64,000 bases of DNA from an uncultured Gammaproteobacteria bacterium (GCA_913009875.1 CAJVYS010000001.1:20578-84577); one strand, 5' to 3'; positions 35,032 through 57,183 are shown, counted from the stretch's first letter. Numbers and translations are program-made. The notes: generated by a model from the sequence alone, not told the origin.

Positions 35032-35047
35032 GGCTCTCTCCTAGCGA

Positions 35048-36273: not shown

Positions 36274-36290
36274 TGCACAATGCAGGCCAA
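36274..36290 (-). promoter_or_regulatory. Putative sigma54 (-24/-12) promoter for idr operon
   Basis: Minus strand TTGGCCTGCATTGTGCA = GG-N10-GC about 95 bp upstream of first ATG. Confidence 0.55.
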
Positions 36291-36586
36291 ACTGGCCATA
36301 TTACATATTTTCATTTTAAAACATTGGCTTACAGTACATATGTCGAATGTTTCACGGAACAATTTATGAACGCTTTGTTCTATGGAGTCAACCGCAGAGA
36401 CGACTTTGTTCACCCCTCCACGAAATAGCAGGGATATGGGCTGGGATGTCTGTGCAACACGGATCTCACCAGAACGCATGGCAGTCAGCTCACCCGTGTA
36501 GTGTCCTGTTACTTGCTTGTGTTTTGTCATAGCTCCCCTACCCGGATGTCACCTTGGCCTATGCCCTGGATCAGGCTGTGGCCCTA

Positions 36587-38995
36587 TCAGACAACAGCCT
36601 TTCTTTGCCTGCGAACCAACAGCAGACCCATCAGGAATACACCACCGGCAATACCCAGTGGCAAACCATAAACCCTCACCGGATCGACTTCGGCGGGCAG
36701 TACCAGCCAGTACCAAGTGGTCAAGGTATGCTTCGACCCGGCCTCACCATTGCTGCCATCCCAGTCGGCGAAGGACACCGGAATAAAGTCACCCTCATTA
36801 AAGCTCACATCGCCACTGTCACCCCCGTTGCGAGGACGTTTCATCAGCACGCTCCACTGACCATTGTCCCAGCGGCTCTGTACCGAAAGACTGTCATCAC
36901 CCTCTCGAGGCACTATTTTCTGGTTAGGCCCGGAGGCATCCAGCAAGGCACCCCGGGATGCCACAGCGGGTTCCACGCTGCCGGCATTCCAATACCACAT
37001 GGTGGTGGGATGGGCGCCATCGCCATGGCGGAACAGGGGCTTGACCACCACGGGCTTGGTCTTGAATGAATCCTGTTTGGGGAACTGGATCGCAAGGGCA
37101 TCGGAATACAGGGTCAGCTTACTGTCCTGTATCTGTGTCGACACGGCTTCCCCCGGACGGCTGTCGGTACGATCATCCACTTTCATTAAGAAGGCGATCT
37201 CATCCGCGTTGTACAATACCTGCACCGTAATCGAGTCATTCAGTGGCGTAAACAGCCGGTCTTCCTTAATGATGTTGGGCACCAGAGGCAAGGTCACTGC
37301 AGGTGCCGTGTCCCACACCTCATCGGTCAAACTATCCGGCAAGGCACCCTCGATCTTTGCGGCACGCACTACCGGCTCATCACTGGGGGCAGCGGATTTG
37401 TTGCGCAGGCTGTAGACGTAATTGGCAATGTGCCAGCGATCTTCCAGGGAAACGGGATCCTTGTTGCCCTCCTCCGTCGCCCGGTGTGCCGGCATGGGTG
37501 TGCCCGGCACACCGATGGACAGACGTGTATAGATGTTTTTAATGGTCTGTTCACGGACCTTCTCATCCTCGCCAGACACATTGGTGACACGCCAGGTCCA
37601 GGGTTTGGTGAGGTTGCGCGGCCAGAGCCGGTTACCCCAGTCATCCTTCAGTTTTTTACCGGAGGTAATATTGCCGCGACCGGTAATGCCGTGACACTTG
37701 CCGCAAACCTTTTCAAAAACGGGTTTACCCTTGGCCACGGACTCTTCACTGAAAGGAATCTGCGATGCAACGGGTTCCGTGTTGGTAATCTTTTGGTAAT
37801 CCGTTTTCAGATAGCGACCGTCATCATCGAAGAACTCATCATCGGCGTCTTCCGGCGCCCAGGCCGCGGTGGTGTCAAAACCCTTGATCACGGGAATCAG
37901 GCTACGAATCTGCTTGTCGCTCAACAACGTGCTCCACGCCGGCATCGCCGTCCCGTTCAGGCCATGTTTAATGGTATTGAACAAATCATCATCACTTGGC
38001 AGCTCGGTGCCCGGTGAGGTCTTGTATTTGAACAGCGAGAGGGTAAAGTCACGCGGCTTGGGATACATGAGATCGGTGGCAACACCATCTCCCGCCCCCT
38101 GCTCGCCATGGCACACCTGGCAGCGTTGCACATAAACGTCGACACCCATTTGTTGCTTATGGCGCGCACTGACCTTGGACGCCATGCCACTCACCACCTT
38201 GGAGATTTCCGCATCCCACATGCGTGGCACCTGGCCGACATAGTCATAAAGAAAGGTAATCACTTCCCAGGTCTCATTCTCGTTCAGCATCTCGTGCCAC
38301 ACGGGCATGGCGGAATTCCACGGTGTACCCTCTTTGGGCAGGCCCGGGCCACCGGTCGAAATACGCCAGAACAGATAGGCCTCCTGCAACTGGGCAATGG
38401 TACCGACATCCTGGAAGTTGGCCGGCTGGGGACTGAAGCCCAGGGCATAATGACCCTTACCGTCCAACAGATCGCCATGACAGAAGAAACAGTTTTTGTA
38501 ATAGACATCACGCCCCGCCTCGACGATCCCTTCATAGGCCTCCCAGCCTTTGTCCTCATCTTCGGCCATGGTTTTCAAAACCTGTTCGCGCAGCGGATTT
38601 TCCAACTTGGACAAATTGTGGCTTTTGCCGAAGACTCGTAATGAGCCCGGCGGCGCGGGATGTACTTGGCGCAGTTCCACTGGCGCATCCATGGAGGGCT
38701 TGACAAAGCCATAGGTGGTATAACCAACGAGGGCCGGGATGGCGAGCAGGAAACCCCAGCGCACAATCACCAGTCTTGGCTCTCTGAGCACCGCCAGGAT
38801 CGGTGAATTGAATTCTTTCCAGCGCGCCTCATCAAAGGAAAAATACAACAATACACTGACAATGGTAATGATCATGTACTGCACCATCAGCGAACTGGGC
38901 AGCAAGGGTGGAAAGGCATTATCAAAAATCAGGTAGGCGATAATGACGACCAACACAGCCTGCCAAAAAGCGGGAATTTTAATGCCTTTCATCAT
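36587..38995 (-). CDS. Membrane-anchored tri-heme cytochrome c with C-terminal ethylbenzene-dehydrogenase-gamma (EB_dh, heme b)-like domain
   Basis: 3 N-terminal TM helices; CFFCH, CQVCH, CGKCH; W..AP..TLPL...D.LAIQFP...WYWNA...W.V.MKRP...F..WDG; C-terminal TM. Confidence 0.85.
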   Translation of the reverse strand: MMKGIKIPAFWQAVLVVIIAYLIFDNAFPPLLPSSLMVQYMIITIVSVLLYFSFDEARWKEFNSPILAVLREPRLVIVRWGFLLAIPALVGYTTYGFVKPSMDAPVELRQVHPAPPGSLRVFGKSHNLSKLENPLREQVLKTMAEDEDKGWEAYEGIVEAGRDVYYKNCFFCHGDLLDGKGHYALGFSPQPANFQDVGTIAQLQEAYLFWRISTGGPGLPKEGTPWNSAMPVWHEMLNENETWEVITFLYDYVGQVPRMWDAEISKVVSGMASKVSARHKQQMGVDVYVQRCQVCHGEQGAGDGVATDLMYPKPRDFTLSLFKYKTSPGTELPSDDDLFNTIKHGLNGTAMPAWSTLLSDKQIRSLIPVIKGFDTTAAWAPEDADDEFFDDDGRYLKTDYQKITNTEPVASQIPFSEESVAKGKPVFEKVCGKCHGITGRGNITSGKKLKDDWGNRLWPRNLTKPWTWRVTNVSGEDEKVREQTIKNIYTRLSIGVPGTPMPAHRATEEGNKDPVSLEDRWHIANYVYSLRNKSAAPSDEPVVRAAKIEGALPDSLTDEVWDTAPAVTLPLVPNIIKEDRLFTPLNDSITVQVLYNADEIAFLMKVDDRTDSRPGEAVSTQIQDSKLTLYSDALAIQFPKQDSFKTKPVVVKPLFRHGDGAHPTTMWYWNAGSVEPAVASRGALLDASGPNQKIVPREGDDSLSVQSRWDNGQWSVLMKRPRNGGDSGDVSFNEGDFIPVSFADWDGSNGEAGSKHTLTTWYWLVLPAEVDPVRVYGLPLGIAGGVFLMGLLLVRRQRKAVV

Positions 38996-39074
38996 TCACC
39001 CCGTACCAATAATATCGATTTATAGATTTTTTCTTCACCAGCCCTGCGGACACCTGCATTTATCGAGACACTCA

Positions 39075-40223
39075 TTACTTACGTTCCATCAGGAAAGTCA
39101 CCAGCGCATCCAGCTGTGCATCGCTCATTTGTTCGGAAAAGTTAGGCGGCATCACCCCCGAGGGAAAGCCCTTGGCAATAACGGCATTGGGGTCGACAAT
39201 ACTCTGACGAACTTGCCCGGCATCCAGTCGTGCCCCCACATCATCCAGGCCGGGGCCAATCTTTCCGCCACTTCCCCAAATGATGTGGCAGGCCTGGCAG
39301 CCAAACTGGCCGATCACTGCCTTGGCACTACTGCTATCGCCGCCATCATCTCCGTCTGTCGCATGAGTGTCCGGCAGGGATGCCGCGATAGATTTCTTAC
39401 TGTCCACCAAATAGTCCACCAATATATCCAGCTCCTTCACCATCATCTGCTCGGCGAAGTCCTGCGGCATCACACCGGGCGGGAAGCCCTCGGCAATCAC
39501 CACATCAGGGGTGATAATGCCCTGACGGATTTCTTCGCGGGTGAAGCGAGCAACCATCTGATCCAGGTCGGGGCCGAGATCCCCTCCGCTGCCCAGTATT
39601 TTGTGGCAAGCCTGGCAACCATACTTGGCGACTACCTCTTCAATTGTGCCCGCGGGTCCAGCTGCTTCCGGGCTGGCGGTTTCCATCGCCGGCGCCTCTG
39701 TGGGAAGCGTCACCGTCACATCGTGTCCATCCTTGGCCTGAAGGAAGGCAATGATGGCATTGATCTCTATTTCCGAAAGCTCAATCGGCGGTTTATCGAC
39801 CGCCGGCATGGGTGAAATGGTGTCGTTACTTCCCTTCTTACCGAAGCCCTTCACCACGTAGATACCGGGATCGACCATGGATTCATGCAGGTAGGATTCG
39901 GCATCAGTGGCTGAGCCCTTGTAGCGCTCATCCTGCATATGCTGGTTGGCCACCTCCACCATATTGATCGCCAATATATCCGGGGCGCGGCCGAGATCGT
40001 TATGGCACAGGGCACAGGTTCCCTTTCCTGAAAAGAGGGTCTCACCCAGGGCGGCATAAGATTCCACGGTCAACGCCCCCAGATCCACTTTCTGCTCGAC
40101 AGGGGCCTCACCTTCCACCTGTGGCAACAGGTTGGCGACCAGGGTGAACAACAGTGCCAAGGCCAGACTGAAGCCCATACTTTTTGCCAGCACACCGCGA
40201 GGGGCTTTTGTCTTGTTGCTCAT
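39075..40223 (-). CDS. Membrane-anchored tri-heme cytochrome c
   Basis: N-terminal TM; CALCH, CQACH, CQACH; the last two domains are near-duplicates. Confidence 0.9.
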   Translation of the reverse strand: MSNKTKAPRGVLAKSMGFSLALALLFTLVANLLPQVEGEAPVEQKVDLGALTVESYAALGETLFSGKGTCALCHNDLGRAPDILAINMVEVANQHMQDERYKGSATDAESYLHESMVDPGIYVVKGFGKKGSNDTISPMPAVDKPPIELSEIEINAIIAFLQAKDGHDVTVTLPTEAPAMETASPEAAGPAGTIEEVVAKYGCQACHKILGSGGDLGPDLDQMVARFTREEIRQGIITPDVVIAEGFPPGVMPQDFAEQMMVKELDILVDYLVDSKKSIAASLPDTHATDGDDGGDSSSAKAVIGQFGCQACHIIWGSGGKIGPGLDDVGARLDAGQVRQSIVDPNAVIAKGFPSGVMPPNFSEQMSDAQLDALVTFLMERK

Positions 40224-42085
40224 GCGGCCTCTCCTGCCTTTTTAGTCACCGACAATGGTGGCGCCTGTTTGGTATTACTGAGATTGGCGATCCAGAAGAT
40301 AAACAGGACAAAGAGTACAAACATGACAGTAACAATCGTCATCATATTTCCCGCATAACCAATAGTGGGGATAAAATTGTCCGGCGAGTTGTCCTTCATT
40401 ACGGTATACACATGCCAGTGGGTACGCACCGAAGAGCGCACATACCCCATCAGCGCCATCAACCAGGTAAAGGCGATGGGCAGTGCAAACAGGGCGTACT
40501 GGGAACGGTTGCTGACCTGGCCCCAGAAGGATGGCAGGGTCTTGGCCTTGCGATACATGAAGGCATCGATCACGACTCCACTGATAATGACCACCAGGGT
40601 GGACACCACCTGCGTAACACTCGCCCCGACCTTGTACACGGTGTTGGTGAAGTAACCGTAATAGACACCGGCAAAAATGATATTGACGATAGCCACGACA
40701 TAGATTGCCACCATCAGGGCATTGCCGGCCTTCTCCCACGAGACCGTGGCGACCTTGTCCGAGCGCCGGTAAATCTGGAAGGACAGAAAGGTGAAAATGA
40801 GCATCAGATTCACGGCGATGTTCTTGGCCGGCATGATCCCCAGTGGTCCCAGCAAGTGATGATGGCTACCACCCAAGGCGGCGATTTCACCCGAGGTAAG
40901 GATCAGGGTATGCGGCGTCACCCAGATCAGGAAACAGATGACCAGGACGACGGCGATATATTTGATCATCCCCTGGTAACGCTTTGATCCTTCGGTGCGT
41001 GACATGCCAGACCACAAATAGTAGTTACCCGCCATGAGGATGGTGCCGATCAATACTGCCTGAACGATAAACAACCAGGCCAGAATGCCACCCATGGCGG
41101 TAATGCCCATCTGCTGCGAATAGGCGTAGATCTCGGCCATCAGCCAATAACCGGCGAAGGGCAAGGGCAGGAAGGCGAGGATGGCGATGAAGTTGGAGGT
41201 GTAGCCCATCCAGTCATAATGCGCGCGGTCCTCGGCGGTTCGGGCGGCCAGACACTTGTAGGCCGCATAGGCTCCCACCACCGCGCCGCCGAAGGCAATG
41301 TTGGCGATAAACCGATGCAGATTGATGGGGTTCCACAACGGCCCCTTCATGACCTCCCAGATATTGCCGATGACCGCGCCGACCTCATTGACCCCCGAGG
41401 GCGCCATCATGAAGGTGGCCCAGGAGTTGGCCATCACCATCAACGTAGCGCCGACACCATTCAATAACAGACCCAGGGAAATATGTACCCACTTGGCGTT
41501 GCCATAGCGCATGGCATCCCAGCCGTAGTAATAGATGTAAAGCAATATGCTTTCCATGAAGAACAGCATGGCGTAAACCAGCATCTGTGCGCCGAAGGCC
41601 TGCATCAGATAGGCCATTAAATCGGGATAAAGCAGGAATAACGCTAACGCCAGGGTGCCACCGAACAGGGCCGTGATGGAATAGGCGGTAATGCTGATCT
41701 TCATGAACTCGTGGGCCATGTCGTCATAGCGCGCATCACCGGTGGATCGGCCCAGCAGTTCAATCACCAGCACAAAAAGCGGCACCGCCAGCACCAGGGC
41801 GCCGAAAAATAAATGCATTTGCGCGATGATCCAGACAATGGAGCGGCTACTGACGCCGACATCGGGATAATCCTCACGGCCAGGCCGGGGGGCCGGTCTC
41901 AGCTGAAATTCCTGCGCAGAATCAGCACTCTCTGCCGTGGCCACTTCCTCTGCGGCAACTTCACTCGCCACGGCCTCGGGCAACCAGTGAGTCGGCGCCA
42001 TGTCTCCTGACCATAAAAAACCCAGTACGGCGACCACCAACAGAGACAGCAGTATCGGTGACGAGAAATTTCTTGTTTCCTTCAT
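40220..42085 (-). CDS. Cytochrome bd subunit I (CydA)-like orphan membrane protein
   Basis: AQMHLFF (His19-like), ANSWATFM, NLHRFIAN (His186-like), MGYVRSSVRTHW; many TM helices; no cydB nearby. Confidence 0.82.
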   Translation of the reverse strand: MKETRNFSSPILLSLLVVAVLGFLWSGDMAPTHWLPEAVASEVAAEEVATAESADSAQEFQLRPAPRPGREDYPDVGVSSRSIVWIIAQMHLFFGALVLAVPLFVLVIELLGRSTGDARYDDMAHEFMKISITAYSITALFGGTLALALFLLYPDLMAYLMQAFGAQMLVYAMLFFMESILLYIYYYGWDAMRYGNAKWVHISLGLLLNGVGATLMVMANSWATFMMAPSGVNEVGAVIGNIWEVMKGPLWNPINLHRFIANIAFGGAVVGAYAAYKCLAARTAEDRAHYDWMGYTSNFIAILAFLPLPFAGYWLMAEIYAYSQQMGITAMGGILAWLFIVQAVLIGTILMAGNYYLWSGMSRTEGSKRYQGMIKYIAVVLVICFLIWVTPHTLILTSGEIAALGGSHHHLLGPLGIMPAKNIAVNLMLIFTFLSFQIYRRSDKVATVSWEKAGNALMVAIYVVAIVNIIFAGVYYGYFTNTVYKVGASVTQVVSTLVVIISGVVIDAFMYRKAKTLPSFWGQVSNRSQYALFALPIAFTWLMALMGYVRSSVRTHWHVYTVMKDNSPDNFIPTIGYAGNMMTIVTVMFVLFVLFIFWIANLSNTKQAPPLSVTKKAGEAA

Positions 42086-42177
42086 GCCGCTATCTCCACA
42101 ATCTTGAGTCGGGTGTTAAGTACGGCGCCTGGAGGTAGAACCCCAGCACATAGAACCAAAGTTTTCATCGTCATGAT

Positions 42178-42306
42178 TTACTGTGACGGTGTTAAATCAA
42201 GATTCAGAGGCAAGCCCTGCACATTCATGATCAAGTGATCCAATCCATAGAAAAGGATCAGCACCACGGTGAAGGCGATTAACCAGATTTGTAGATTCTT
42301 TCCCAT
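42178..42306 (-). CDS. 42-aa single-TM small protein
   Basis: MGKNLQIWLIAFTVVLILFYGLDHLIMNVQGLPLNLDLTPSQ; purine-rich leader; in operon. Confidence 0.6.
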   Translation of the reverse strand: MGKNLQIWLIAFTVVLILFYGLDHLIMNVQGLPLNLDLTPSQ

Positions 42307-42384
42307 TTGCTTCTCTTGATCTTTACGCGTGAAATATTCCGTCCGCCATAACATGGCGAACACGAATTCTGTTCTCAATCAACG

Positions 42385-42546
42385 TCAACCGTGATGTATT
42401 TCAGCACCGCCGGAATAGATTAGCAGCCACCAGAAAAACACCAGCATCAGAACCAGGATGGTCCAGAACAATTTGGGACCCCAGGTGGTGCCGTCCTGTA
42501 ACTCCGTGGCCTGGGTCTTGTCTTCTTGCTTCCCCGATGCAGTCAT
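42385..42546 (-). CDS. 53-aa single-TM small protein (not in ORF track)
   Basis: MTASGKQEDKTQATELQDGTTWGPKLFWTILVLMLVFFWWLLIYSGGAEIHHG; GGAG RBS. Confidence 0.65.
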   Translation of the reverse strand: MTASGKQEDKTQATELQDGTTWGPKLFWTILVLMLVFFWWLLIYSGGAEIHHG

Positions 42547-42656: not shown

Positions 42657-42674
42657 TAGCAACATCCAGGCCAT
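42657..42674 (-). promoter_or_regulatory. Putative sigma54 promoter for the bd-like operon
   Basis: Minus strand ATGGCCTGGATGTTGCTA = GG-N10-GC with TTGC. Confidence 0.6.
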
Positions 42675-42995: not shown

Positions 42996-43012
42996 TTGGT
43001 ACGGCTTCTGCT
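42996..43012 (+). promoter_or_regulatory. Putative sigma54 promoter for the HEAT/USP/radical SAM operon
   Basis: TTGGTACGGCTTCTGCT, close to YTGGCACGRNNNTTGCW. Confidence 0.65.
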
Positions 43013-49123: not shown

Positions 49124-49127
49124 CACG

Positions 49128-51149
49128 ATGTCCGACAACGACCTCTTCCTGCTGGCCATCAACCTGACCCGGCGTTGCAATCTGGCCTGTGACCACTGTT
49201 ATCTCGACGCCAACACCCTGCAAAATGGCAGCCCCGACGAACTGAGCCGCGAAGAGGTCTGCCACCTGCTCGATGACATCGCCGCGCGCGGCACCGATGT
49301 GATGGTCGTACTCACCGGCGGCGAACCGCTGATACGCCCCGATCTGGAGCTTCTCATCAACCATGGTAGTCGCCTCGGCCTGTCCATGGTGGTGGGTACC
49401 AATGGCGTCATGCTCACCGACAAACGTGTGCAATCGCTCAAGCTCGCCGGCGCCCTGGGCATGGGTATCAGTGTCGATTCACTCGATCCCCACCAACACG
49501 ATCAATTCCGCGGCCGCAGCGGCGCCTGGGAAAAAACCCTGGCCGGTATCGAGGCCTGCCGCCGTCACGACCTGCCCTTCCAGGTGCACTTCTCCGTCAC
49601 CGAGGCCAACGCCAACGAGGTGCCGGCGATGATCGACTTCGCCCGTGCCAGCGGCGCACGGGTGTTGAACATCTTCTTTCTGGTCTGCACCGGGCGCGGC
49701 GAATCCATGTCCGACATCAGCCCCATCACCTATGAGCGAGTATTGAATCAACTGGTGGCGGCGCAGAGCGAAAACCACGAGCTGATGATCCGCGCCCGTT
49801 GTGCGCCACACTTCAAGCGCATCGCCTATGAACAGGATCCCCAGTCCCCCCTCACCCGGGCCGAGGGCTACGAGGGCGGCGGCTGTCTGGCGGGCATTCA
49901 TTACTGCCGGATTACTCCCGAGGGCGATATCACCGCCTGCCCCTATATTCCCGACAGCGAGGGCAATATCCGCGAAACCCCCTTCTGGCAGACCTGGGAA
50001 GAGTCACCGACCTTCGCCTCGTTGCGTGATCCCTCGTTGAAGGACAAGTGCGGCCAGTGCGAATACCAGAAACTGTGCGGCGGCTGCCGCGCCCGGCCGC
50101 TGGCAATGGGTGGCAACCTCATGGACACCGACCCCTGGTGCAGCTACCTGCCGCAGGGCGGCAAGGTAATCCAACCATTAGTAGAGACCCCCTCGACCAT
50201 CACCTGGTCGCCGGAGGCCGAACAACGCCTGCAGCGCATCCCCTCCTTCCTGCGCAAGATGGTGAAGAAGCGCACCGAGGCCCATGTGCAGGAGTTGGGT
50301 GAACAGCAGGTCACCGTGGCGCACATGTCCACCCTGGCCGCCAAGCGTTTCGGCGATGCCGGACCGCTGGGCATGCCCGATCAGGCCGCCGCCAAATCCC
50401 CCTTCGACGAGGCTAGCAAGGAACTGCCCTGGAGTCAGGAGGCGCGTGAGCGTCTGGCCGGCATGCCGGCCTTTTTGGCCGAGGGCGTGCGCGCCGTGGC
50501 CGAGGACGTGGCCCGCGCCGAGGGTCGTCTGGAGGTCAACATCAAGCTGCTGGACCGGCTGGAGGCCGAGGACCGGCAGGTGCGCCGGTTCGACTGGTCC
50601 AGCGAGGCCGAGGCTGCAGTGGAGGAATGCTTGGCCGACAAGCCCCCCCAGGTGCGCATGTTTGTCGCCCCGGCGCTGGAGGCCGAGGCCGAGCAGATCA
50701 CCAAGAAACGTCGTGCGACCACGGTGGCAGCAGAGGACGTGCAGCAGGCCATGGCCGTCTTCACCGGTGGCGTGGAATGGTCCGATGAGGCCGCCAAACG
50801 GGTCGCCAGTGCCCCTGATTTTGTCCGTGCCGGTATCAAAAAGGCGGCTGAGTTCAACGCCCGCCGGGAAGGTTTGGATGTCATCGGATCCACCGACCTC
50901 ACACGATTCCGCAATCGCGCCATGATGCGCGCGGTGCAGCGCATGAAGGGCTTCGGCATGACCGAACTGAGCTTTGACGCCTTCGATATCGCCAAGGTCA
51001 AGGTGCCGCGCCTGAAGGAAAACCCGGAGGCGGTAAAGCGCTTCAGCAGCATCCGCGAGTTTGTCGATGCACGCGAACACCCCGGAGAACTGCTGGGGCA
51101 GGAGCTGCTGGCGGAGATGAAAGAAAAGTTGAAAGGTAATGTTAAATGA
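49128..51149 (+). CDS. Radical SAM/SPASM protein (AhbC/AhbD/NirJ-like) fused to four PCP_red-like modules
   Basis: CNLACDHC, LTGGEPL; SPASM C..G..YC.ITPEG...C...C..C.Y..LCGGCRAR...DPWC. Confidence 0.85.
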   Translation: MSDNDLFLLAINLTRRCNLACDHCYLDANTLQNGSPDELSREEVCHLLDDIAARGTDVMVVLTGGEPLIRPDLELLINHGSRLGLSMVVGTNGVMLTDKRVQSLKLAGALGMGISVDSLDPHQHDQFRGRSGAWEKTLAGIEACRRHDLPFQVHFSVTEANANEVPAMIDFARASGARVLNIFFLVCTGRGESMSDISPITYERVLNQLVAAQSENHELMIRARCAPHFKRIAYEQDPQSPLTRAEGYEGGGCLAGIHYCRITPEGDITACPYIPDSEGNIRETPFWQTWEESPTFASLRDPSLKDKCGQCEYQKLCGGCRARPLAMGGNLMDTDPWCSYLPQGGKVIQPLVETPSTITWSPEAEQRLQRIPSFLRKMVKKRTEAHVQELGEQQVTVAHMSTLAAKRFGDAGPLGMPDQAAAKSPFDEASKELPWSQEARERLAGMPAFLAEGVRAVAEDVARAEGRLEVNIKLLDRLEAEDRQVRRFDWSSEAEAAVEECLADKPPQVRMFVAPALEAEAEQITKKRRATTVAAEDVQQAMAVFTGGVEWSDEAAKRVASAPDFVRAGIKKAAEFNARREGLDVIGSTDLTRFRNRAMMRAVQRMKGFGMTELSFDAFDIAKVKVPRLKENPEAVKRFSSIREFVDAREHPGELLGQELLAEMKEKLKGNVK

Positions 51150-51157
51150 ATATGCCG

Positions 51158-51241
51158 GTAGGTTGGGGTGAGGTACGAACCCCAACAGCGGCAGTTTGCC
51201 AAAACCTCGATTGTTGGGGTTCGTACCTCACCCCAACCTAC
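51158..51241. repeat. REPIN, family C, inside the operon
   Basis: Perfect 30-bp inverted repeat between radical SAM gene and hemY. Confidence 0.9.
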
Positions 51242-51256
51242 AACTAGAAGTAAAAC

Positions 51257-52675
51257 ATGACCGACACAGACGTACTCATCATCGGCGGTGGAATCTCCGG
51301 CCTCGCCACGGCTTGGTGGCTGGCCCAGGCGGGTGTCTCTGTGCAGGTGTGGGAGGCCGACAAGCGCATCGGCGGCAAGATAAAGAGCCGCCAGCAGGAT
51401 GGCTACCTCACCGAGCAGGCCGCCTCGCTATTGATGAATTTTCGCCCGGAAGTCGCGCAACTGGTGCACGCAGCGGGGCTGGACGAGGTCAAGACCCGGC
51501 GCATCTCCCAGGCCCAGGCACGACGCTATCTCCTCCACCGTGGCCAACTACAGGCCTTGCCGATGCGAATCGGCGGCATGTTGACCTCGCCCCTGTGGAG
51601 TCTGCGCGGCAAATTACGCCTGATGCTGGAGCCCTTCATCCCCGCCGGTAGCCACGATGACGAATCCGTCAGCCAGTTCATCCGCCGGCGGCTGGGCAAT
51701 GAAATGCTGGAAAAGGCCATGGAACCCTTTGTCGCCGGCACCCTGTCGGCAGACCCGGATCTGGCCAGCGCCGGCGCCACTCTGCCCCGTCTGACCACAC
51801 TGGAACGCCACTTCGGCTCCATCACCGCCGGTGTGGTGGCGCATAAACTGCTGCGCCGCCGCACCGCTTGCAGCACCGATACCTTTTCCTTCCGCGGTGG
51901 CATGAGCACACTGGCCAATACCCTGGCATGCACACCCGGCCTGCAGATCCTCTCCAACCGTCGCGTGCAGGAAGTGGCGCCCTGCCGGAATGGCTGGCGT
52001 GTCACTGCGGCAACCCCGGACGGAGAACGCAGCCTCACCGCCACACACGTCATCATGGCCACACCGGCACCGGCGGCGGCAAACCTGCTGGCATCGGTGG
52101 ACAAAACCCTGGCATCGCTACTGGATGAAATCCGCTATGCGCCACTGGCGGTGTTACACATGGGGCTGGAACGCGCAGATATCGAACACCCACTGGACGG
52201 CACCGGCTTCCTCACGCCACGATGCGAGCAGCAACCCTTTTCCGGCAATCTGTGGATGAGCAGCCTGTTTGCGGATCGCGCCCCGCAAGACAAGGCCCTG
52301 CTCACCACCTACCTTGGCGGTGCCCGCCAACCCGAGGCCGCCGCCTGGAGTGACGCCCGCCTGGTCGACGAGAGCCTGCGTGCGCTGACACCGCTGCTGG
52401 GACTGAAGGGCAGTCCTGTGATGGTGCGCATCGATCGCCACGCCCAGGCCCTGCCCCTCTACCATGGTGCCCATATGGCGCGGGACCGGAGTATCAGCCA
52501 GCAACTGCGCGCCTTGCCCGGTCTGCATGTCGAAGCCAATTATCGGGGTGGTGTATCCGTACGTGATCGCATTGCCCGTGGCCGCTCATTGGCGCGCCAC
52601 ATCTGCACACAATTGCAGACAAATACGCGGGGCCTGTCAGCGGATACCCTGATTTCACTGCCCGCGAATCGTTAA
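51257..52675 (+). CDS. hemY: FAD-dependent protoporphyrinogen/coproporphyrinogen oxidase (HemY type)
   Basis: IIGGGISGL, EA..RIGG.I, RRRLG.E......PFVAG..S.DP, FRGGM..L, GTGFL.P, LPLYH. Confidence 0.85.
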   Translation: MTDTDVLIIGGGISGLATAWWLAQAGVSVQVWEADKRIGGKIKSRQQDGYLTEQAASLLMNFRPEVAQLVHAAGLDEVKTRRISQAQARRYLLHRGQLQALPMRIGGMLTSPLWSLRGKLRLMLEPFIPAGSHDDESVSQFIRRRLGNEMLEKAMEPFVAGTLSADPDLASAGATLPRLTTLERHFGSITAGVVAHKLLRRRTACSTDTFSFRGGMSTLANTLACTPGLQILSNRRVQEVAPCRNGWRVTAATPDGERSLTATHVIMATPAPAAANLLASVDKTLASLLDEIRYAPLAVLHMGLERADIEHPLDGTGFLTPRCEQQPFSGNLWMSSLFADRAPQDKALLTTYLGGARQPEAAAWSDARLVDESLRALTPLLGLKGSPVMVRIDRHAQALPLYHGAHMARDRSISQQLRALPGLHVEANYRGGVSVRDRIARGRSLARHICTQLQTNTRGLSADTLISLPANR

Positions 52676-52796
52676 TCGTCAAAACCGCCAGCAGGGTATT
52701 GCGGGCGTTGCGGATCTTGCCAATAGCCTCCACTATTGGCGGCAATGCCGGCTGGTACCGGCATCGATCAGAAACCCATTGATGGAGAACCGAAGC

Positions 52797-53132
52797 ATGG
52801 CCATACCGAAACAGGCCAACCTCCCGCAACCCGCCGCACCCTATCTTTTTCTGCGTGTTACCGGGGCGGTATTATTGATCATGCTGCTGATTTCGGTATG
52901 GGCTAGGTGGTACGGTCAGCAGGTCTCCCTGCCGCGTTACTGCGAGGATCCGCAGGGCACAGTGCAACACCTCGAAAAGGTATTGGTGGAAAAACGTCCT
53001 GCCGGCGATGAGGCGCGCCGCCCCTACATTATTGCCGCCAAGATACTCTTTCTTTTACCGCGTCATCCGGAAGAAGGACAGACGGCCTATCTCACTCGCA
53101 TCCGCACCCACATCCAGGATACCTGCCGGTGA
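52797..53132 (+). CDS. Small membrane-anchored hypothetical protein
   Basis: One TM, periplasmic part with two Cys; stop overlaps kinase start (GTGA). Confidence 0.6.
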   Translation: MAIPKQANLPQPAAPYLFLRVTGAVLLIMLLISVWARWYGQQVSLPRYCEDPQGTVQHLEKVLVEKRPAGDEARRPYIIAAKILFLLPRHPEEGQTAYLTRIRTHIQDTCR

Positions 53133-55723
53133 ACACGAGCATTCAGAGTCGTGATCGCCCCCCCGCCCTGAGCGGACGCTTTCTGCTGATCTTTCTACCC
53201 CTGAGCACCCTGCTGGTCGCCATCGGCGTCAGTCATTACTACGCCGAGATGCGGCTGGCACGGGTCAGTCTGGAAAGCAATGAAATACAAAACGTGGCAC
53301 TGGCACAAAAAGGAATTACCAGTGAGATGCGCGCCGTCATCTCCGACCTCACCTTCCTCGCCAAACTCAATGAACTCTGGGGCCTTTTGGATGACCCCAA
53401 CAATAACTCCGCGCGCCAGAACCTGTCGCAGGAATTTCTCTACTTCAGCGAGAAAAAAGGTATCTATGACCAGATCCGTTTTTTGTCGGCGGACGGCATG
53501 GAAATCATCCGCATTAATTACAACCAGGGTCAGCCGCACATCGTTGGGCAAGATCAATTACAAAACAAGGGTGATCGATATTACTTTAAAGAGGCCATGG
53601 CACAAGACATCGGTGGCGTCTATATGTCACCTTTCGACTTGAATGTCGAAGATGGGCAAGTTGAAAACCCCTTTCGGCCGGTGATTCGCTTCGCCACTCC
53701 TCTGTTCAATAGTCAGGGAGAAAAAAAAGGCGTGTTGATGTTCAACTTCCGTGGTGAACGACTGCTGCAGAGTTTTCATCTGGCCGCCCCCAATATCGAT
53801 GATCACCTCAACCTCATTGATACCAAAGGCTACTGGCTCAGCGGCCCCCGCCCGGAAGACGAATGGGGGTTCTTTATGGGACGAAAACGTTCATTTGCTG
53901 AAACCTTTCCCGCTGCCTGGCAACGGATATTGAACGAAAACAGTGGCGGCTTCGTCACGGAAGAAGGCTTGTTCACCTTTTCCACCATCTACCCCATGGT
54001 CTCGGTCATGGAATTTTATGCCAATGCCGGTATGGGGTCGATCTCCTCAATCTTCGATGGCTATCAGGACACCAACCCCCGTTTTTGGAAAACCGTTTCA
54101 CATGTTCCAACCTCAATTCTGAATACCGCTTCGCAAAACTTTTTTCGCCAAAATCTCTTGCTCTATTCACTGGCGGGTCTTTTTTTACTGGCAGGATCCT
54201 TTATCGTTGCCCAGGCAGGCATTCGCAAACAACTCGAAGAGGCGCAAAGAAGCTTTGAACGCCGCTACCGTGACACACTGAAAAACATGCAATTGTCGGC
54301 AGTCACCCTGGATGCGGAGGGTCTTATTACCTTCTGCAATGATTGCCTTCTTAAATTGACAGGTTGGCGGCGAGAAGAAGTTATCGGGAAAAACTGGTTT
54401 GATCTTTTTGTGACACCACAGGATCGGCAACAGGCACATACTTCCTTTGCGGAAATTATCAACGGCAATGCCTCGCCACACACGATTGAAAGCCATATTG
54501 CGACGAAGTCCGGCGAGACATTACTCTTTTCCTGGGCCTCCACTCTCTCTTTCAGCCGTCTTGGAAAAATATCCACACTGACCAGCATTGGCCAGGACAT
54601 TACCCTGCAGAACGAGCATGAAGAACGCCTGCGAAAATTGTCCCGAGCCGTCGAGCAAAGTCGAAACTCGGTGATGATTACCGACATCGACGGTCATATT
54701 GAATATGTCAATCCGCGCTTTAGCGAGGTGACGGGCTACAGCGCCGAAGAAGTGACTGGCAAGACACCGAGACTCTTCAAATCCGGAGAGACCAGCGACA
54801 CGGATTATGACCAACTCTGGAAAACCATCATCCAGGGCAATGAATGGCGTGGTGTGTTCCACAATCGCAAGAAAAACGGTGAGTTCTATTGGGAAGATAC
54901 CCTGATCTCCCCCATACGCAATGAACAGGGTGAAATCACCCATTTTCTCGCCATCAAGGAAGACATCACTGAGCATGTGCGGCTAAAAGAGGAGGTAGAA
55001 GAACGCAACCGGGAACTGGCAAAAAACCAGACACTGACAGCCATGGGACGAATGGCCACCATGATTGCTCATGATCTGCGCAACCCGCTTTCCTCCATCA
55101 AGATGACCTTGCAGATATGGGGAAAGCGTGCCGAGGGGGACTGGGGTGAAGAGGCTGCAGAGATGAAACAAATCTCACTGGATCAGGTACGCTACATGGA
55201 AACCATTCTCGCCGACCTGTTGACCTTTGCTCGCCCCGACGCCCTGAGTCCGGAGTGGCTGGATGTAAAAAAGCTGCTCACCAGTGCCATCAATACCACA
55301 CAAAAGGAGCTACAAGAACGCGGCGCCAGGATCACCGTGGACTACCAGCCACAGCTACCGACGGTACATGGCGATGCCACCAAATTACGGCAGGCATTCA
55401 GTAACCTGATCACAAACGCCCTGGACGCTACCGACGACGTAAACCACGTTCCGCAAATCCGCATCCGCGCCTTAATGGAGGTTAATGACGCGACACCGGC
55501 AATTCGCATTGATATCTGCGACAACGGTGGCGGTATCGAGCCGGGGCTGAATGGCAAGTTGTTTGAGCCATTCTTCACCACTCGCGCCAAGGGCACGGGT
55601 CTGGGCCTGCCCATTGTCAAGCGCATCCTCGACCAGCATCATAGCCAGATCAGCTTGCACGCAAACAAGAGTGGCGGCACCTGTGCCAGTGTCACCTTAC
55701 CGATAGGACCCATTGAGTCATGA
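53129..55723 (+). CDS. Sensor histidine kinase (periplasmic Cache-like, 2 PAS, HisKA, HATPase)
   Basis: Two TM, YDQIRFL..DG.E.IR, PAS repeats, AHDLRNPL, NLITNA, DNGGG, FFTTR.KGTGLGL. Confidence 0.93.
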   Translation: MNTSIQSRDRPPALSGRFLLIFLPLSTLLVAIGVSHYYAEMRLARVSLESNEIQNVALAQKGITSEMRAVISDLTFLAKLNELWGLLDDPNNNSARQNLSQEFLYFSEKKGIYDQIRFLSADGMEIIRINYNQGQPHIVGQDQLQNKGDRYYFKEAMAQDIGGVYMSPFDLNVEDGQVENPFRPVIRFATPLFNSQGEKKGVLMFNFRGERLLQSFHLAAPNIDDHLNLIDTKGYWLSGPRPEDEWGFFMGRKRSFAETFPAAWQRILNENSGGFVTEEGLFTFSTIYPMVSVMEFYANAGMGSISSIFDGYQDTNPRFWKTVSHVPTSILNTASQNFFRQNLLLYSLAGLFLLAGSFIVAQAGIRKQLEEAQRSFERRYRDTLKNMQLSAVTLDAEGLITFCNDCLLKLTGWRREEVIGKNWFDLFVTPQDRQQAHTSFAEIINGNASPHTIESHIATKSGETLLFSWASTLSFSRLGKISTLTSIGQDITLQNEHEERLRKLSRAVEQSRNSVMITDIDGHIEYVNPRFSEVTGYSAEEVTGKTPRLFKSGETSDTDYDQLWKTIIQGNEWRGVFHNRKKNGEFYWEDTLISPIRNEQGEITHFLAIKEDITEHVRLKEEVEERNRELAKNQTLTAMGRMATMIAHDLRNPLSSIKMTLQIWGKRAEGDWGEEAAEMKQISLDQVRYMETILADLLTFARPDALSPEWLDVKKLLTSAINTTQKELQERGARITVDYQPQLPTVHGDATKLRQAFSNLITNALDATDDVNHVPQIRIRALMEVNDATPAIRIDICDNGGGIEPGLNGKLFEPFFTTRAKGTGLGLPIVKRILDQHHSQISLHANKSGGTCASVTLPIGPIES

Positions 55724-57183
55724 ACACGGCGATGAAAGATTTGAGTTCCATAACGGGTACAGAAGACAGGATGTCCATGAGTAAAGGACATATATTAATC
55801 GTTGACGACGATGTCGCCAGCTGCAGAACGCTACAGCTGCATCTGCGCAGTGAAGGCTATGATGTCGACATGGCCCATAGTGTCGACGAAGGATTAGCCG
55901 CGGCTCATGTTCGGCGTCCCGACCTGCTTATTCTCGACATCCGCATGCCGGGCAAGTCCGGCCTGGAAGGACTGCCCGAATTCAAGCAAACCTTCTCCGC
56001 CCTCCACATCATCATGATTACCGCATTCCATGACATGGACAGTACGATCCAGGCCATGCAAAACGGTGCCGAAGACTATATCCACAAGCCCATCGATATC
56101 GATGAGCTGGACAGCACCATCTCTCAGATTCTGGCCCCCGAAGCTCAATCGACGGTGAAAGCAGATCACAATGAACCCATCACTGACGGCAACACCATGG
56201 TGGGTCGTTCACGTGCCATGAAAGAGGTGTTCAAAACCATTGGCCTGGTTGCGTCCAGCCCGGTAACGGTATTGATCACCGGCGAATCCGGCACCGGCAA
56301 GGAACTGGTGGCCCGGGCCACCCACCGTGCAGGACAGAGAGCCGGTGGTGCCTTTGTCGCCATTAATTGCGCAGCGCTGGTCGAAAACCTTCTGGAATCA
56401 GACATGTTCGGCCATGAAAAGGGATCCTTCACCGGTGCAGTGAGCCGTCAATCCGGTAAATTTGAGCAGGCCAACCACGGCAGCATCTTCCTCGACGAAA
56501 TTGGCGAGCTTTCCCTCACCATGCAGGCCAAATTATTACGCGTGCTGCAAGAAAAGGAATTTACCCCGATTGGCGCCAAGACCCCCCAGCGAACCAATGC
56601 CCGTGTTATTGCCGCTACCAATGTGAATCTGGCTGAGCGTGTACGCGAAGGAAGGTTTCGCGAAGACCTGTACTACCGCTTGCGGGTAGTGACCATTCAT
56701 CTGCCGCCACTGCGCGAGCGCCGCGAAGATATCGAAGATCTGGTGCAGACCCTGATTTCGCGCATCAACCAACAAATGCATGCCGGCGTTAAACAGATCT
56801 CCGCCGATGTTATGGAGTGCCTGAAAAAATACGACTGGCCAGGCAACGTTCGCGAATTGTCCAATACGCTGGAAAAGGCGATAGCCCTCTGCCCGGGCTC
56901 GGTCATCACCCGCAATCTGATATCAGATATTTGTAGTTGTGGTACACCCATGGCCGATAGCGACCATCGCCCGCTGACGGAATTAAGCCTGGAAGAAATT
57001 GAAGGTGCTCATGTAAAACGGGTGCTGGAGGCAACCCGCTGGCACAAGGGGCGCGCCTGCGACATCCTCGGCGTCTCCCGGCCACGCCTGCGACGCATGA
57101 TCAAACACTTCGGGCTGACACCACCTGACGGCACGGAAGAGGATGATGATCACGGAGATGAAAATGCGGTATCCCACGACTAG
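55720..57183 (+). CDS. Sigma54-dependent response regulator (REC-AAA-HTH)
   Basis: ILIVDDD, LDIRMPG, GESGTGKE, ESDMFGHEKGSFTGA, WPGNVREL, Fis-type HTH. Confidence 0.95.
   Translation: MNTAMKDLSSITGTEDRMSMSKGHILIVDDDVASCRTLQLHLRSEGYDVDMAHSVDEGLAAAHVRRPDLLILDIRMPGKSGLEGLPEFKQTFSALHIIMITAFHDMDSTIQAMQNGAEDYIHKPIDIDELDSTISQILAPEAQSTVKADHNEPITDGNTMVGRSRAMKEVFKTIGLVASSPVTVLITGESGTGKELVARATHRAGQRAGGAFVAINCAALVENLLESDMFGHEKGSFTGAVSRQSGKFEQANHGSIFLDEIGELSLTMQAKLLRVLQEKEFTPIGAKTPQRTNARVIAATNVNLAERVREGRFREDLYYRLRVVTIHLPPLRERREDIEDLVQTLISRINQQMHAGVKQISADVMECLKKYDWPGNVRELSNTLEKAIALCPGSVITRNLISDICSCGTPMADSDHRPLTELSLEEIEGAHVKRVLEATRWHKGRACDILGVSRPRLRRMIKHFGLTPPDGTEEDDDHGDENAVSHD

What the first reader, a model, noticed from the sequence alone, without database searches (positions are those of the whole stretch)
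36274..57183. One sigma54 regulon and a candidate oxyanion sensor
Seen: GG-N10-GC elements at 36274, 42657 and 42996; the two minus-strand ones share TGGCCTG-x-AT. A Cache/PAS kinase with a sigma54 regulator sits in the island, translationally coupled to a small membrane protein. Established: aio (AioSR) and perchlorate (PcrSR) loci use sigma54 two-component control. Inference: this pair may sense iodate or a product such as HOI or H2O2.
Basis: partly seen in the sequence, partly recalled or inferred. Interest (0 to 1): 0.6.

Follow-up and report, generated by a model that had tools for sequence, protein, structure and literature searches.

The report
Sigma-54 regulon of an iodate-reductase island
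Three operons of a mobile respiratory gene island (iodate-reductase genes, an unusual oxidase-like complex and a haem-maturation set) carry the same type of promoter and the same 17-base enhancer, so they look like one switchable unit run by the island's own sensor kinase and activator, although what the sensor detects is still unknown.

Summary
They face idrP2P1BA, a bd-like/cytochrome c operon and a HEAT/haem-maturation operon that ends in a small membrane protein, a dCache-PAS-PAS kinase and an NtrC-type activator.

New here: each promoter is preceded by a palindrome, TTGAAC-N5-GTTCAA, about 93-114 nt upstream of its -24 element.

- **Conservation.** Of 22 related islands, 21 keep both divergent promoters and 20 keep the palindrome. 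It is about 44-fold denser there than elsewhere in those loci.
- **idrP2 loci.** 46 of 72 pair the two elements, in discrete spacing classes.
- **Link to the kinase.** Genomes with these elements hold a kinase orthologue (5 of 5 tested); five genomes without them do not (0 of 5).

"One regulon under the island's activator" is therefore well supported by comparative data, though not experimentally.

"Iodate sensor" is not supported. Orthologous kinase-activator pairs occur in four genomes where no IdrA was found, beside other cytochrome modules. The second PAS domain belongs to the flavin redox-sensor group.

I found no paper naming an idr regulator. This scan has noted the same sigma-54 operon on other DNA (e1-898555, e1-4011681).

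The parts
36274..36289 (-). Sigma-54 -24/-12 element A (TGGCCTGCATTGTGCA), promoter of idrP2-idrP1-idrB-idrA
   Evidence: An equivalent site is present in 51 of 72 idrP2 loci (score >=9) and 61 of 72 (>=8).
36366..36382 (.). Enhancer palindrome upstream of A (minus-strand reading TAGAACAAAGCGTTCAT, 2 mismatches to TTGAAC-N5-GTTCAA). It starts 93 nt upstream of the -24 T. The 76-nt spacer is 70% A+T.
   Evidence: The same 91-93 or 97-103 nt spacing recurs in related loci.
42658..42673 (-). Sigma-54 -24/-12 element B (TGGCCTGGATGTTGCT), promoter of the small-ORF/bd-like/cytochrome c operon
   Evidence: Present in 21 of 22 class-G loci.
42773..42789 (.). Enhancer-like palindrome 1 (ATGAATACAACGTTCAT, 3 mismatches), 100 nt upstream of B
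   Evidence: Conserved in the close relative L055.
42842..42858 (.). Enhancer palindrome 2 (TTGAACGAATCATTCAC, 2 mismatches), between B and C
42883..42899 (.). Enhancer palindrome 3 (TTAAACGTTGCGTTCAA, 1 mismatch), 114 nt upstream of C
42997..43012 (+). Sigma-54 -24/-12 element C (TGGTACGGCTTCTGCT), promoter of the HEAT...kinase-activator operon
   Evidence: Present in 21 of 22 class-G loci. Identical in the same-genus genome G085.
30323..36178 (-). Target operon 1: idrP2 (35048-36178), idrP1 (33766-35031), idrB (33137-33736), idrA (30323-33034)
   Evidence: Pfam and NCBIfam
36587..42546 (-). Target operon 2: 53-aa and 66-aa membrane ORFs, bd-like subunit (40220-42085), cytochrome c (39075-40223), multihaem cytochrome c with EB_dh domain (36587-38995)
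   Evidence: synteny
43060..52675 (+). Target operon 3, front part: HEAT-repeat protein, CarboxypepD_reg-like protein, Usp+PCP_red, radical SAM/SPASM+PCP_red (AhbD/NirJ-like), HemY-like oxidase
   Evidence: No sigma-54-like site scoring 9 or more (one weak site of 8, on the opposite strand) and no enhancer in the internal gaps.
52779..53132 (+). 117-aa single-pass membrane protein with two invariant Cys (residues 54 and 116). Its stop overlaps the kinase start.
   Evidence: Predicted overlap of 1-13 nt in 22 of 29 orthologous loci.
53129..55723 (+). Sensor histidine kinase: TM, periplasmic dCache (PF21623), TM, PAS, flavin-type PAS, HisKA, HATPase
55720..57183 (+). NtrC-type enhancer-binding protein: REC, AAA+ with GSFTGA, HTH_8 with conserved ...SRPRLRRMI...

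Best explanation
The 27-kb island is wired as one sigma-54 regulon.

Three promoters (PidrP2, Pbd-like, PHEAT) are closed-complex sigma-54 promoters. Each has, about 93-114 nt upstream of its -24 element, one or more copies of a 17-bp palindrome, TTGAAC-N5-GTTCAA (fuller consensus TTGAACRAWTYGTTCAA). The island's own NtrC-type activator (55720-57183) binds these palindromes when its partner kinase phosphorylates it, and it then remodels the sigma-54 holoenzyme.

The kinase and activator genes lie at the 3' end of the PHEAT operon, with no further promoter-like element in between. The circuit should therefore amplify itself once triggered.

What is shown: the elements, their conservation in place and spacing, and their co-occurrence with the kinase-activator pair. 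What is inferred: binding, sigma-54 dependence, co-transcription and autoregulation.

The signal. I judge that the kinase does not read iodate specifically. It more likely reads a cue common to the different cytochrome-rich respiratory modules it accompanies. The most likely cue is respiratory redox state or low oxygen, sensed through its NifL/MmoS/Aer-like (flavin-type) second PAS domain (about 40%). The periplasmic dCache domain and the two-cysteine membrane partner would add an unidentified periplasmic input. Direct sensing of iodate or an iodine or peroxide product is about 15-20%.
For: Promoters: see the observation check.

Enhancer in the window's genome:
- The palindrome occurs 1-3 times upstream of all three promoter classes in every one of the seven islands first compared.
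- In G000 only 142 sites (<=2 mismatches) exist in 3.56 Mb, 35 of them outside ORFs. Three of the window's five lie in the two promoter regions.

Enhancer in related islands:
- In the 22 class-G loci, 54 sites fall in 33.95 kb of promoter-upstream DNA against 13 in 357.7 kb elsewhere.
- Upstream of idrP2, 46 of 72 loci pair a site >=8 with a palindrome 60-220 nt upstream. The spacings fall in classes of 91-93, 97-103, 134-136, 142-145 and 151-153 nt, which suggests helical phasing.

Link to the island's kinase-activator pair:
- All 8 sampled gammaproteobacterial genomes with a full-length kinase orthologue (of 400, besides G000) carry it inside the same island.
- 5 of 5 genomes whose idrP2 promoter has both elements hold a full-length orthologue (42-71% identity). 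0 of 5 genomes of large sulfur bacteria whose idrP2 lacks both elements do.
- Distant bd-like loci without the HEAT gene mostly lack both: 15 of 50 have a site >=9 and 6 of 50 a palindrome.
- The helix-turn-helix segment WHKG.AC.ILG.SRPRLRRMI is nearly invariant in 40 orthologues and differs from the neighbouring NorR.
- GAFTGA/GSFTGA is intact, and rpoN is present.

Signal:
- PAS2 matches 3EWK (E 1.9e-30), NifL PAS1 2GJ3 (2.4e-19), Aer 8DIK and LOV domains, but lacks the LOV cysteine. It also matches NCBIfam NifL. That these domains bind flavin is recalled, not tested.
- Orthologous pairs sit beside non-idr modules behind the same enhancer (L147, L166, L168).
Against: - There is no transcript evidence. 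No RNA run holds the stretch, so no start site is mapped and sigma-54 dependence is untested.
- The genome has about 11 sigma-54 activators. Assigning the enhancer to this one rests on co-inheritance, not on binding.
- The window's own palindromes are weak copies (1, 2, 2 and 3 mismatches). In the 98%-related locus L055 two of them have 3 mismatches.
- The same-genus genome G085 keeps promoters A and C although no kinase, activator or radical-SAM orthologue was found in its 220-contig assembly. Either the assembly misses them or the promoters persist without the pair.
- One class-G locus (L065) has none of the elements. 26 of 72 idrP2 loci lack a palindrome at <=2 mismatches.
- The related loci are not independent: many are Sedimenticolaceae and their relatives.
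- The 459-nt gap before the Usp gene could hide another promoter.
- The redox reading rests on sequence likeness of one PAS domain. Six related islands carry an FNR-type box at PidrP2, which would leave oxygen sensing to another regulator and free the kinase for a substrate signal.
Confidence: 0.68

Rival explanations
1. The pair is a dedicated iodine-oxyanion sensor: the periplasmic dCache domain binds iodate, or the two-cysteine membrane partner reacts with HOI or H2O2, and the regulon is induced by the substrate or its product.
For: - All 8 sampled gammaproteobacterial genomes with the kinase also have IdrA, while IdrA occurs in only 15 of 401.
- Minimal islands in two Moritella genomes and one Motiliproteus genome hold only idrP2P1BA plus HEAT-kinase-activator. 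L175 and L177 place the kinase and activator directly upstream of idr.
- Invariant R117, K147, R150 and R187 lie in the distal sensor module (secondary structure).
- The partner protein has two invariant cysteines.
- An FNR-type box at PidrP2 in 6 of 14 related islands would leave oxygen sensing to another factor.
- idr genes are induced in the iodate phase in two isolates (PMC13455634, passages read).
Against: - Four of five further genomes with an orthologous pair gave no IdrA-like match at E<=1e-100. There the pair accompanies bd-like/haem modules or multihaem cytochromes.
- Those copies nest inside the island clade in the kinase tree (FastTree only) and keep the same invariant sensor residues.
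- Most of the basic residues also align in the Vibrio GGDEF sensor 2P7J/3LID, so they mark the family, not a ligand.
- No ligand is known for that structural relative in the passages I read (PMC5658362, PMC6050961).
- The isolates in which induction was shown were not among the loci I retrieved.
Confidence: 0.18
2. The promoters are real sigma-54 promoters, but another activator drives them (a housekeeping NtrC-family protein or the adjacent NorR). The island pair would control only its own operon or something else.
For: - The genome encodes about 11 sigma-54 activators, and NorR lies 1 kb away.
- G085 keeps promoters A and C with no orthologue of the pair found.
Against: - The enhancer and the pair co-occur across classes and gene orders.
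- The NorR helix-turn-helix differs.
- No palindrome lies in the norR-nirK spacer.
- Housekeeping activators would not explain why the motif is absent from bd-like and idr loci of genomes that lack the pair.
Confidence: 0.08
3. The matches are chance or non-functional. The operons use sigma-70-type promoters.
For: - Site A scores only 9 of 12, and C lacks the canonical C of TGGC.
- Sites of this quality are common in the genome (2148 at >=9).
- The sigma-70 pattern scan is at chance level and cannot exclude such promoters.
Against: Place, orientation and enhancer spacing are conserved in dozens of diverged loci while the surrounding DNA is not.
Confidence: 0.03

Closest known systems
AioXSR-RpoN control of arsenite oxidase aioBA (Agrobacterium tumefaciens, Rhizobium sp. 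NT-26; review PMC7533571, passages read)
   Same: A sigma-54-dependent response regulator and a membrane kinase are encoded beside an AioA-family molybdoenzyme operon that has an RpoN-type promoter. A third, periplasm-facing component is encoded just upstream of the kinase.
   Different: - There is no AioX-type periplasmic binding protein gene in the island (Pfam of all island genes). The third component here is a 117-aa single-pass protein of no known family.
- The kinase carries a dCache and two PAS domains.
- The regulon spans three operons with a defined palindrome.
- The enzyme is of the Idr type, with two peroxidases.
- Sequence relationship to AioS and AioR was not tested.
PcrPSR-RpoN of the perchlorate reduction island (Azospira suillum PS; PMC3884062, passages read)
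   Same: A horizontally mobile oxyanion-respiration island carries its own kinase, a sigma-54 response regulator, an extra membrane sensor component and a moaA copy. rpoN is required there, and an RpoN motif lies upstream of the reductase operon. The signal is unknown there too.
   Different: - PcrS has HAMP and a periplasmic region with no Pfam match, and PcrP is a separate two-PAS membrane protein.
- Here the PAS domains are fused to a dCache kinase, and no HAMP was found.
NtrBC/AtoSC/ZraSR-type sigma-54 two-component systems (NCBIfam equivalogs)
   Same: The activator has the same domain order (REC, AAA+, HTH_8), and the kinase core has the same type.
   Different: All equivalog scores are below the curated cut-offs: NtrC 438.8 against 558.6, AtoC 400.3 against 714, ZraR 378.9 against 760, AtoS 217.5 against 646. 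The pair is therefore an unnamed subfamily.
NifL PAS1, MmoS and Aer flavin-PAS redox sensors (PDB 2GJ3, 3EWK, 8DIK)
   Same: The kinase's second PAS domain matches them best.
   Different: Flavin binding is not shown here. Those proteins lack a periplasmic dCache input. That these entries bind flavin is my recollection.

Membership tests
Sigma-54 (RpoN) promoters | GG and GC dinucleotides exactly 10 nt apart in a TGGCAC-N5-TTGC-like context, upstream of and facing a gene | tested here: met
   Sites A, B and C score 9, 10 and 10 of 12. The consensus is recalled.
Sigma-54 (RpoN) promoters | The host encodes RpoN | tested here: met
   PF04552, 229 bits, at G000:C84, open frame of 511 aa
Sigma-54 (RpoN) promoters | Transcription starts about 12 nt downstream of the GC and depends on RpoN | not testable with these tools
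   No RNA run holds the stretch
Sigma-54 (RpoN) promoters | An upstream activator site at about -80 to -200 | tested here: met
   TTGAAC-N5-GTTCAA lies 93-114 nt upstream of each -24 element and is conserved
Bacterial enhancer-binding proteins, NtrC-type response regulators | REC + AAA+ Sigma54_activat with the GAFTGA loop + C-terminal HTH_8 | tested here: met
   PF00072, PF00158 (232.8 bits) and PF02954. The loop reads GSFTGA in the window and GAFTGA or GSFTGA in most of the 40 orthologues aligned (two read GAFSGA; the divergent L175 lacks the motif).
NtrC / AtoC / ZraR equivalogs (NCBIfam) | Score above the curated equivalog cut-off | tested here: not met
   All scores are below the cut-offs
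AioXSR three-component system | An AioX periplasmic binding protein gene next to aioSR | tested here: not met
   No binding-protein domain in any island gene. A 117-aa protein of no known family sits there instead.
AioXSR three-component system | Orthology of the kinase and regulator to AioS and AioR | not tested
   No AioS or AioR sequence was fetched
PcrPSR system | PcrS architecture (periplasmic region without a Pfam match, HAMP, HisKA, HATPase) plus a separate two-PAS protein PcrP | tested here: not met
   The kinase has PF21623 plus two PAS domains, and no HAMP hit. The PcrS and PcrP architecture is taken from PMC3884062 passages.
dCache / double-PDC sensor domains (PF21623) | Periplasmic two-module PAS-like fold between two TM helices | tested here: met
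   PF21623, 97.6 bits. phmmer to 2P7J and 3LID, E 3e-17. AlphaFold model pLDDT 87.3; Foldseek to 3LID, TM-score 0.74/0.80.
Flavin-binding PAS (NifL PAS1 / MmoS / Aer / LOV) | Sequence membership | tested here: met
   3EWK E 1.9e-30, 2GJ3 E 2.4e-19; TIGR02938, 184 bits over its positions 8-128
Flavin-binding PAS (NifL PAS1 / MmoS / Aer / LOV) | Bound FAD or FMN | not testable with these tools
   Needs purified protein

The most novel reading that the evidence does not exclude
The dCache kinase, together with its two-cysteine membrane partner, is the first dedicated sensor of an iodine species (iodate, or the HOI/H2O2 made by its reduction). The TTGAAC-N5-GTTCAA regulon is then the genetic switch for iodate respiration in marine sulfur-oxidising bacteria. 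On this reading, the copies in genomes without IdrA are later re-uses of the pair.
Probability: 0.17. Interest if true: 0.75.

Novelty: new variant of a known kind. Interest (0 to 1): 0.5.

Why it matters
In the papers I could search, no regulator of the idr genes is named. It is known only that they are induced during iodate reduction and held down by nitrate.

This work gives a concrete circuit to test: three promoters, a defined 17-bp enhancer, one activator, one kinase and a small partner protein. The circuit is present in cultured strains named by the search tool: Sedimenticola hydrogenitrophicus SB48 and SN1189, and Moritella dasanensis ArB 0140.

It also shows that the iodate-reductase genes, a bd-like (OR-N-type) complex of unknown function and a haem-maturation set are switched together. 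That argues they work as one respiratory unit.

Finally, it warns against calling the kinase an iodate sensor on synteny alone.

Tried and rejected
- **Transcript evidence.** The look-up of sequencing runs on window 35000-44000 listed 19 DNA holders and no RNA holder. Start-site mapping was therefore impossible and read laying was not used.
- **Complex prediction.** Kinase residues 1-380 with the 117-aa protein gave no verdict (score 0.01). I draw nothing from it.
- **5' leader of idrP2.** An 8-bp GC hairpin lies at 36210-36236, but the leader does not fold better than shuffles (z = -0.29). I dropped it as a feature.
- **ORF 36141-36530 (129 aa).** It would contain promoter A. It has no family hit and is only 56-57% identical in relatives whose IdrP2 is 87-93% identical. 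I read it as non-coding promoter DNA.
- **Internal promoters.** Neither the sigma-70 pattern scan nor the sigma-54 and enhancer scans of the internal gaps of the HEAT operon found anything above chance.
- **Other regulon members in G000.** Only one other intergenic pairing of enhancer and sigma-54 site of score 9 or more lies before a gene (C29, a porin). It was not followed into other genomes.
- **Ligand of the closest solved sensor.** No ligand for 3LID or 2P7J is stated in the passages I read.
- **Validated iodate respirers.** The isolates Denitromonas, Azoarcus DN11 and Pseudomonas SCT did not appear among the 80 best idrP2 loci. Whether they use this circuit is open.
- **Supplements.** I did not open the supplements of the papers cited. 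The bioRxiv supplements of the OR-N paper are closed and may define the OR-N2 subfamily, which I did not test.

Full report
**What is there**

The stretch 30.3-58.2 kb of the window holds three gene strings (Pfam, NCBIfam).

- On the minus strand: idrP2 (35048-36178), idrP1, idrB and idrA. These are two di-haem peroxidases, a Rieske protein and an AioA-like molybdoenzyme.
- Further upstream on the same strand: two small membrane ORFs, a bd-like subunit (40220-42085), a cytochrome c, and a multihaem cytochrome c with an EB_dh domain (36587-38995).
- On the plus strand: a HEAT-repeat protein (43060-45597), a CarboxypepD_reg-like protein, a Usp+PCP_red protein, an AhbD/NirJ-like radical SAM+PCP_red protein, a HemY-like oxidase, a 117-aa membrane protein, a histidine kinase (53129-55723), an NtrC-type activator (55720-57183) and MoaA.

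The kinase start overlaps the stop of the 117-aa gene (GTGA). The activator start overlaps the kinase stop (ATGA). rpoN is present on another contig. The genome has about 11 sigma-54 activators.

**The observation**

The three GG-N10-GC elements are at 36289..36274 (-), 42673..42658 (-) and 42997..43012 (+). They match 9, 10 and 10 of the 12 specified positions of TGGCACG-N4-TTGCW, a consensus I recalled. Each faces the first gene of one string.

On sequence alone they are unremarkable. The genome has 2148 such sites at >=9 and 341 at >=10, of which 58 lie outside my crude ORF map. The simpler pattern TGGC-N8-TGC gives 28 window matches against 17.9 +/- 4.5 in shuffles. Of the window's seven sites at >=10, B and C are two; four of the other five are inside long ORFs and one (7625) is not.

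**Related islands**

A search of 400 genomes of the same class found full-length kinase orthologues (43-54% identity) in 8. In all 8 the kinase lies in the same island with idr, bd-like and HEAT/PCP_red genes (in G287 the idr genes lie on another contig). In six of the islands, the spacer between the HEAT gene and the bd-like operon has two outward-facing sigma-54 elements. Three have one upstream of idrP2.

Reading those spacers side by side exposed a shared inverted repeat, TTGAAC-N5-GTTCAA. It is present in 1-3 good copies upstream of every promoter class in every genome.

In the window the copies are:
- 36366-36382, 93 nt upstream of A.
- 42773-42789 (3 mismatches), 100 nt upstream of B.
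- 42842-42858, between B and C.
- 42883-42899, 114 nt upstream of C.

**Is the palindrome more than chance?**

- G000 has 142 sites with <=2 mismatches in 3.56 Mb, 35 of them outside ORFs. Three of the window's five lie in the two promoter regions.
- I fetched 80 loci around relatives of the bd-like protein. In 22 of them a HEAT gene diverges from the bd-like operon ('class G').
- Of those 22, 21 have a B site >=9, 21 have a C site >=9, and 20 have at least one palindrome. The misses are L065 (no element at all) and L055, whose copies have 3 mismatches.
- In these 22 loci the palindrome occurs 54 times in 33.95 kb of promoter-upstream DNA and 13 times in the other 357.7 kb.
- Among the 50 other loci with enough upstream DNA, 15 have a site >=9 and 6 have a palindrome. 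Several of these are alphaproteobacterial islands with strong sigma-54 sites and a degenerate TTGAAC half-site.
- Distant bd-like loci (Nitrospinae, Deltaproteobacteria, Rhodospirillaceae) lack both.
- I fetched a second set of 80 loci around idrP2 relatives. Of the 72 with >=500 nt upstream, 51 have a site >=9, 61 have a site >=8, and 46 have a palindrome. All 46 pair a site with a palindrome 60-220 nt upstream.
- The spacings fall into classes of 91-93, 97-103, 134-136, 142-145 and 151-153 nt. This fits a requirement for a fixed helical face.
- The pooled sites give the 17-bp palindrome TTGAACRAWTYGTTCAA (n = 47, selected at <=2 mismatches).
- These loci are related to each other, so the counts overstate independence.

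**Which activator?**

The assignment to the island's own activator is an inference from co-occurrence.

1. The pair and the elements travel together through different gene orders. These are the class-G islands; Moritella dasanensis, a Moritella MAG and a Motiliproteus MAG with only idrP2P1BA, HEAT, kinase and activator; a betaproteobacterial MAG (L166) and an alphaproteobacterial MAG (L168) with divergent sigma-54 pairs and palindromes between them; and L175 and L177 with kinase-activator-idr in one line.
2. I chose five genomes whose idrP2 promoter has both elements and five whose promoter has neither; the latter are all large sulfur bacteria, so they form one clade. A full-length kinase orthologue was present in 5 of 5 and 0 of 5 respectively.
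3. The helix-turn-helix segment is nearly invariant in 40 orthologues and unlike that of the adjacent NorR. The norR-nirK spacer has no palindrome.

Against this, the same-genus genome G085 (IdrA 95% identical) lacks the whole bd-like operon. Its promoters A and C sit in one 575-bp spacer, and no kinase, activator or radical-SAM orthologue was found in its 220-contig assembly. This is either an assembly loss or a decaying island.

No sigma-54 site scoring 9 or more, and no palindrome, lies in the internal gaps of the HEAT operon. The kinase and activator are therefore probably co-transcribed from C and self-amplifying. This is inferred, not shown.

**The sensor**

The periplasmic part (residues about 38-345) is a dCache/double-PDC domain.
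- Pfam PF21623 scores 97.6 bits.
- phmmer to the Vibrio parahaemolyticus sensor 2P7J/3LID gives E 3e-17.
- An AlphaFold model built on 34 orthologues has pLDDT 87.3, and Foldseek puts 3LID first with TM-scores 0.74/0.80.

Sixteen columns are invariant in the 34 orthologues. Twelve of them are polar or aromatic residues of the membrane-distal module: R117, E125, N130, K147, R150, Y152, Y165, S167, N172, E174, R187 and N206 (full-length numbering). R117, E125, K147, R150, Y152, R187 and N206 also align with identical residues in the Vibrio protein. They therefore mark the domain family rather than a particular ligand. I found no stated ligand for that structure.

The second cytoplasmic PAS domain matches 3EWK, NifL PAS1 (2GJ3), Aer (8DIK) and LOV domains, without the LOV cysteine. 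As I recall, all of these are flavin-binding redox or light sensors.

The 117-aa partner has one membrane helix and two invariant cysteines in 30 orthologues. Its gene overlaps the kinase gene in 22 of 29 loci by my start calls. In alphaproteobacterial islands a homologue sits directly before the bd-like gene instead.

**What is sensed?**

For iodate:
- All 8 sampled gammaproteobacterial genomes with the kinase have IdrA, while IdrA occurs in 15 of 401.
- The minimal islands hold little else than idr.
- Six related islands have an FNR-type box between the palindrome and the -24 element of PidrP2. That would leave oxygen sensing to another factor.
- idr genes are induced in the iodate phase and held down by nitrate in two isolates (PMC13455634, passages).

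Against iodate:
- Four of five further genomes with an orthologous pair gave no IdrA-like match.
- There the pair accompanies bd-like plus haem modules (L166, L168) or multihaem cytochromes. L147 has a perfect palindrome and a sigma-54 site before an MtrC-like gene.
- Those copies nest within the island clade (FastTree, midpoint root) and keep the invariant sensor residues.

I therefore put direct iodine-species sensing at about 15-20%. A cue shared by these respiratory modules, most simply redox state or low oxygen via PAS2, is about 40%. The rest is unknown.

**Comparison with the known**

The design works like AioXSR-RpoN (PMC7533571, passages) and PcrPSR-RpoN (PMC3884062, passages). In each, an island-borne kinase, a sigma-54 response regulator, a third membrane or periplasmic component and a sigma-54 promoter sit on a molybdoenzyme operon.

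It is not a member of either family by the features I could test. There is no AioX-type binding protein. There is no HAMP and no separate PcrP, and the sensor is a dCache domain with fused PAS domains. All NCBIfam equivalogs (NtrC, AtoC, ZraR, AtoS) score below their cut-offs.

**Is it in print?**

- The idr island paper (PMC8692401) names no regulator for idr in the passages found, and a term search of it found no two-component or histidine-kinase mention; it calls the flanking genes poorly conserved.
- A search for iodate together with sigma-54, RpoN, NtrC, two-component or enhancer-binding returned no listed paper that holds 'iodate'.
- A search on idrA, idrP1, transcriptome and regulation gave no named regulator.
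- The bd-like protein probably belongs to the OR-N group of Murali et al. (bioRxiv 10.1101/2021.01.16.426971, passages). I did not test this.
- This scan has noted the same self-activating sigma-54 operon beside the oxidase and idr genes on other DNA (e1-898555, e1-4011681, e1-4323198).

**Verdict**

The regulon reading is well supported by comparative evidence and extended by a defined enhancer. The iodate-sensor reading remains a minority possibility. This is a new variant of a known kind of respiratory-island control circuit. It is directly testable in cultured strains.

Noticed in passing
L058, L061, L062, L068, L075, L104 (about 190-216 nt before idrP2): An FNR/CRP-type box, TTGAT-N4-ATCAA (0-1 mismatch), lies between the enhancer palindrome and the sigma-54 -24 element of the idrP2 promoter in 6 of 14 class-G islands. 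Background is 0.087 per kb over 1.24 Mb of loci. There is none in the window at <=2 mismatches. A CRP/FNR-family site inside a sigma-54 promoter region is unusual.
   Followed up: partly
window 36141-36530 (-): This 129-aa ORF spans promoter A and its enhancer. It has no family hit and is poorly conserved as protein (56-57%) in close relatives, so it is probably not a gene. Other islands carry SCO1/SenC at this place (plus PCuAC in L078; MoeA and NnrS in L081), which hints that the bd-like complex needs copper.
   Followed up: partly
L041 18330-18904 (G085, same genus): The whole bd-like/cytochrome c operon is missing. The idrP2 and HEAT promoters are fused into one 575-bp divergent spacer that aligns with window ~36.3-36.4 kb joined to ~42.8-43.0 kb. 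No kinase, activator or radical-SAM orthologue was found in that assembly.
   Followed up: partly
G000:C29:19419-19622 (L038 5420-5625): This is the only other intergenic pairing in the genome of the palindrome (TTGAACGGCCCGTTCTA) with a sigma-54-like site of score 9 or more before a gene (TGGTATGAATTCTGCT, very like site C). It lies 44 nt before a Porin_5-family gene, which is followed by a second such gene. These may be an outer-membrane entry route belonging to the regulon.
   Followed up: partly
L147 16502-16712: In a Sedimenticola MAG with no IdrA-like match, a paralogous kinase-activator pair sits next to a cytochrome b561-like gene, an MtrC-like multihaem cytochrome and a NapC/NirT gene. 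A perfect palindrome and a sigma-54 site lie before the multihaem gene.
   Followed up: partly
L086-L102, L116 (alphaproteobacterial islands): A homologue of the 117-aa kinase partner is encoded directly upstream of the bd-like gene rather than next to a kinase. The small protein may therefore belong to, or report on, the bd-like complex.
   Followed up: no
window 4887-4902 (+): A perfect 12-of-12 sigma-54 consensus (TGGCACGCACATTGCT) lies inside gyrA. It is an intragenic site of the kind reported for E. coli sigma-54.
   Followed up: no
window 8000-12000: A low-GC stretch (37-43% against about 58%) holds T5orf172/MUG113+DUF4041 and DUF2971 genes. ParE- and CcdB-type toxin genes and an IS200-like transposase lie nearby. 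This looks like inserted mobile or defence DNA next to gyrA.
   Followed up: no
   Followed up: no
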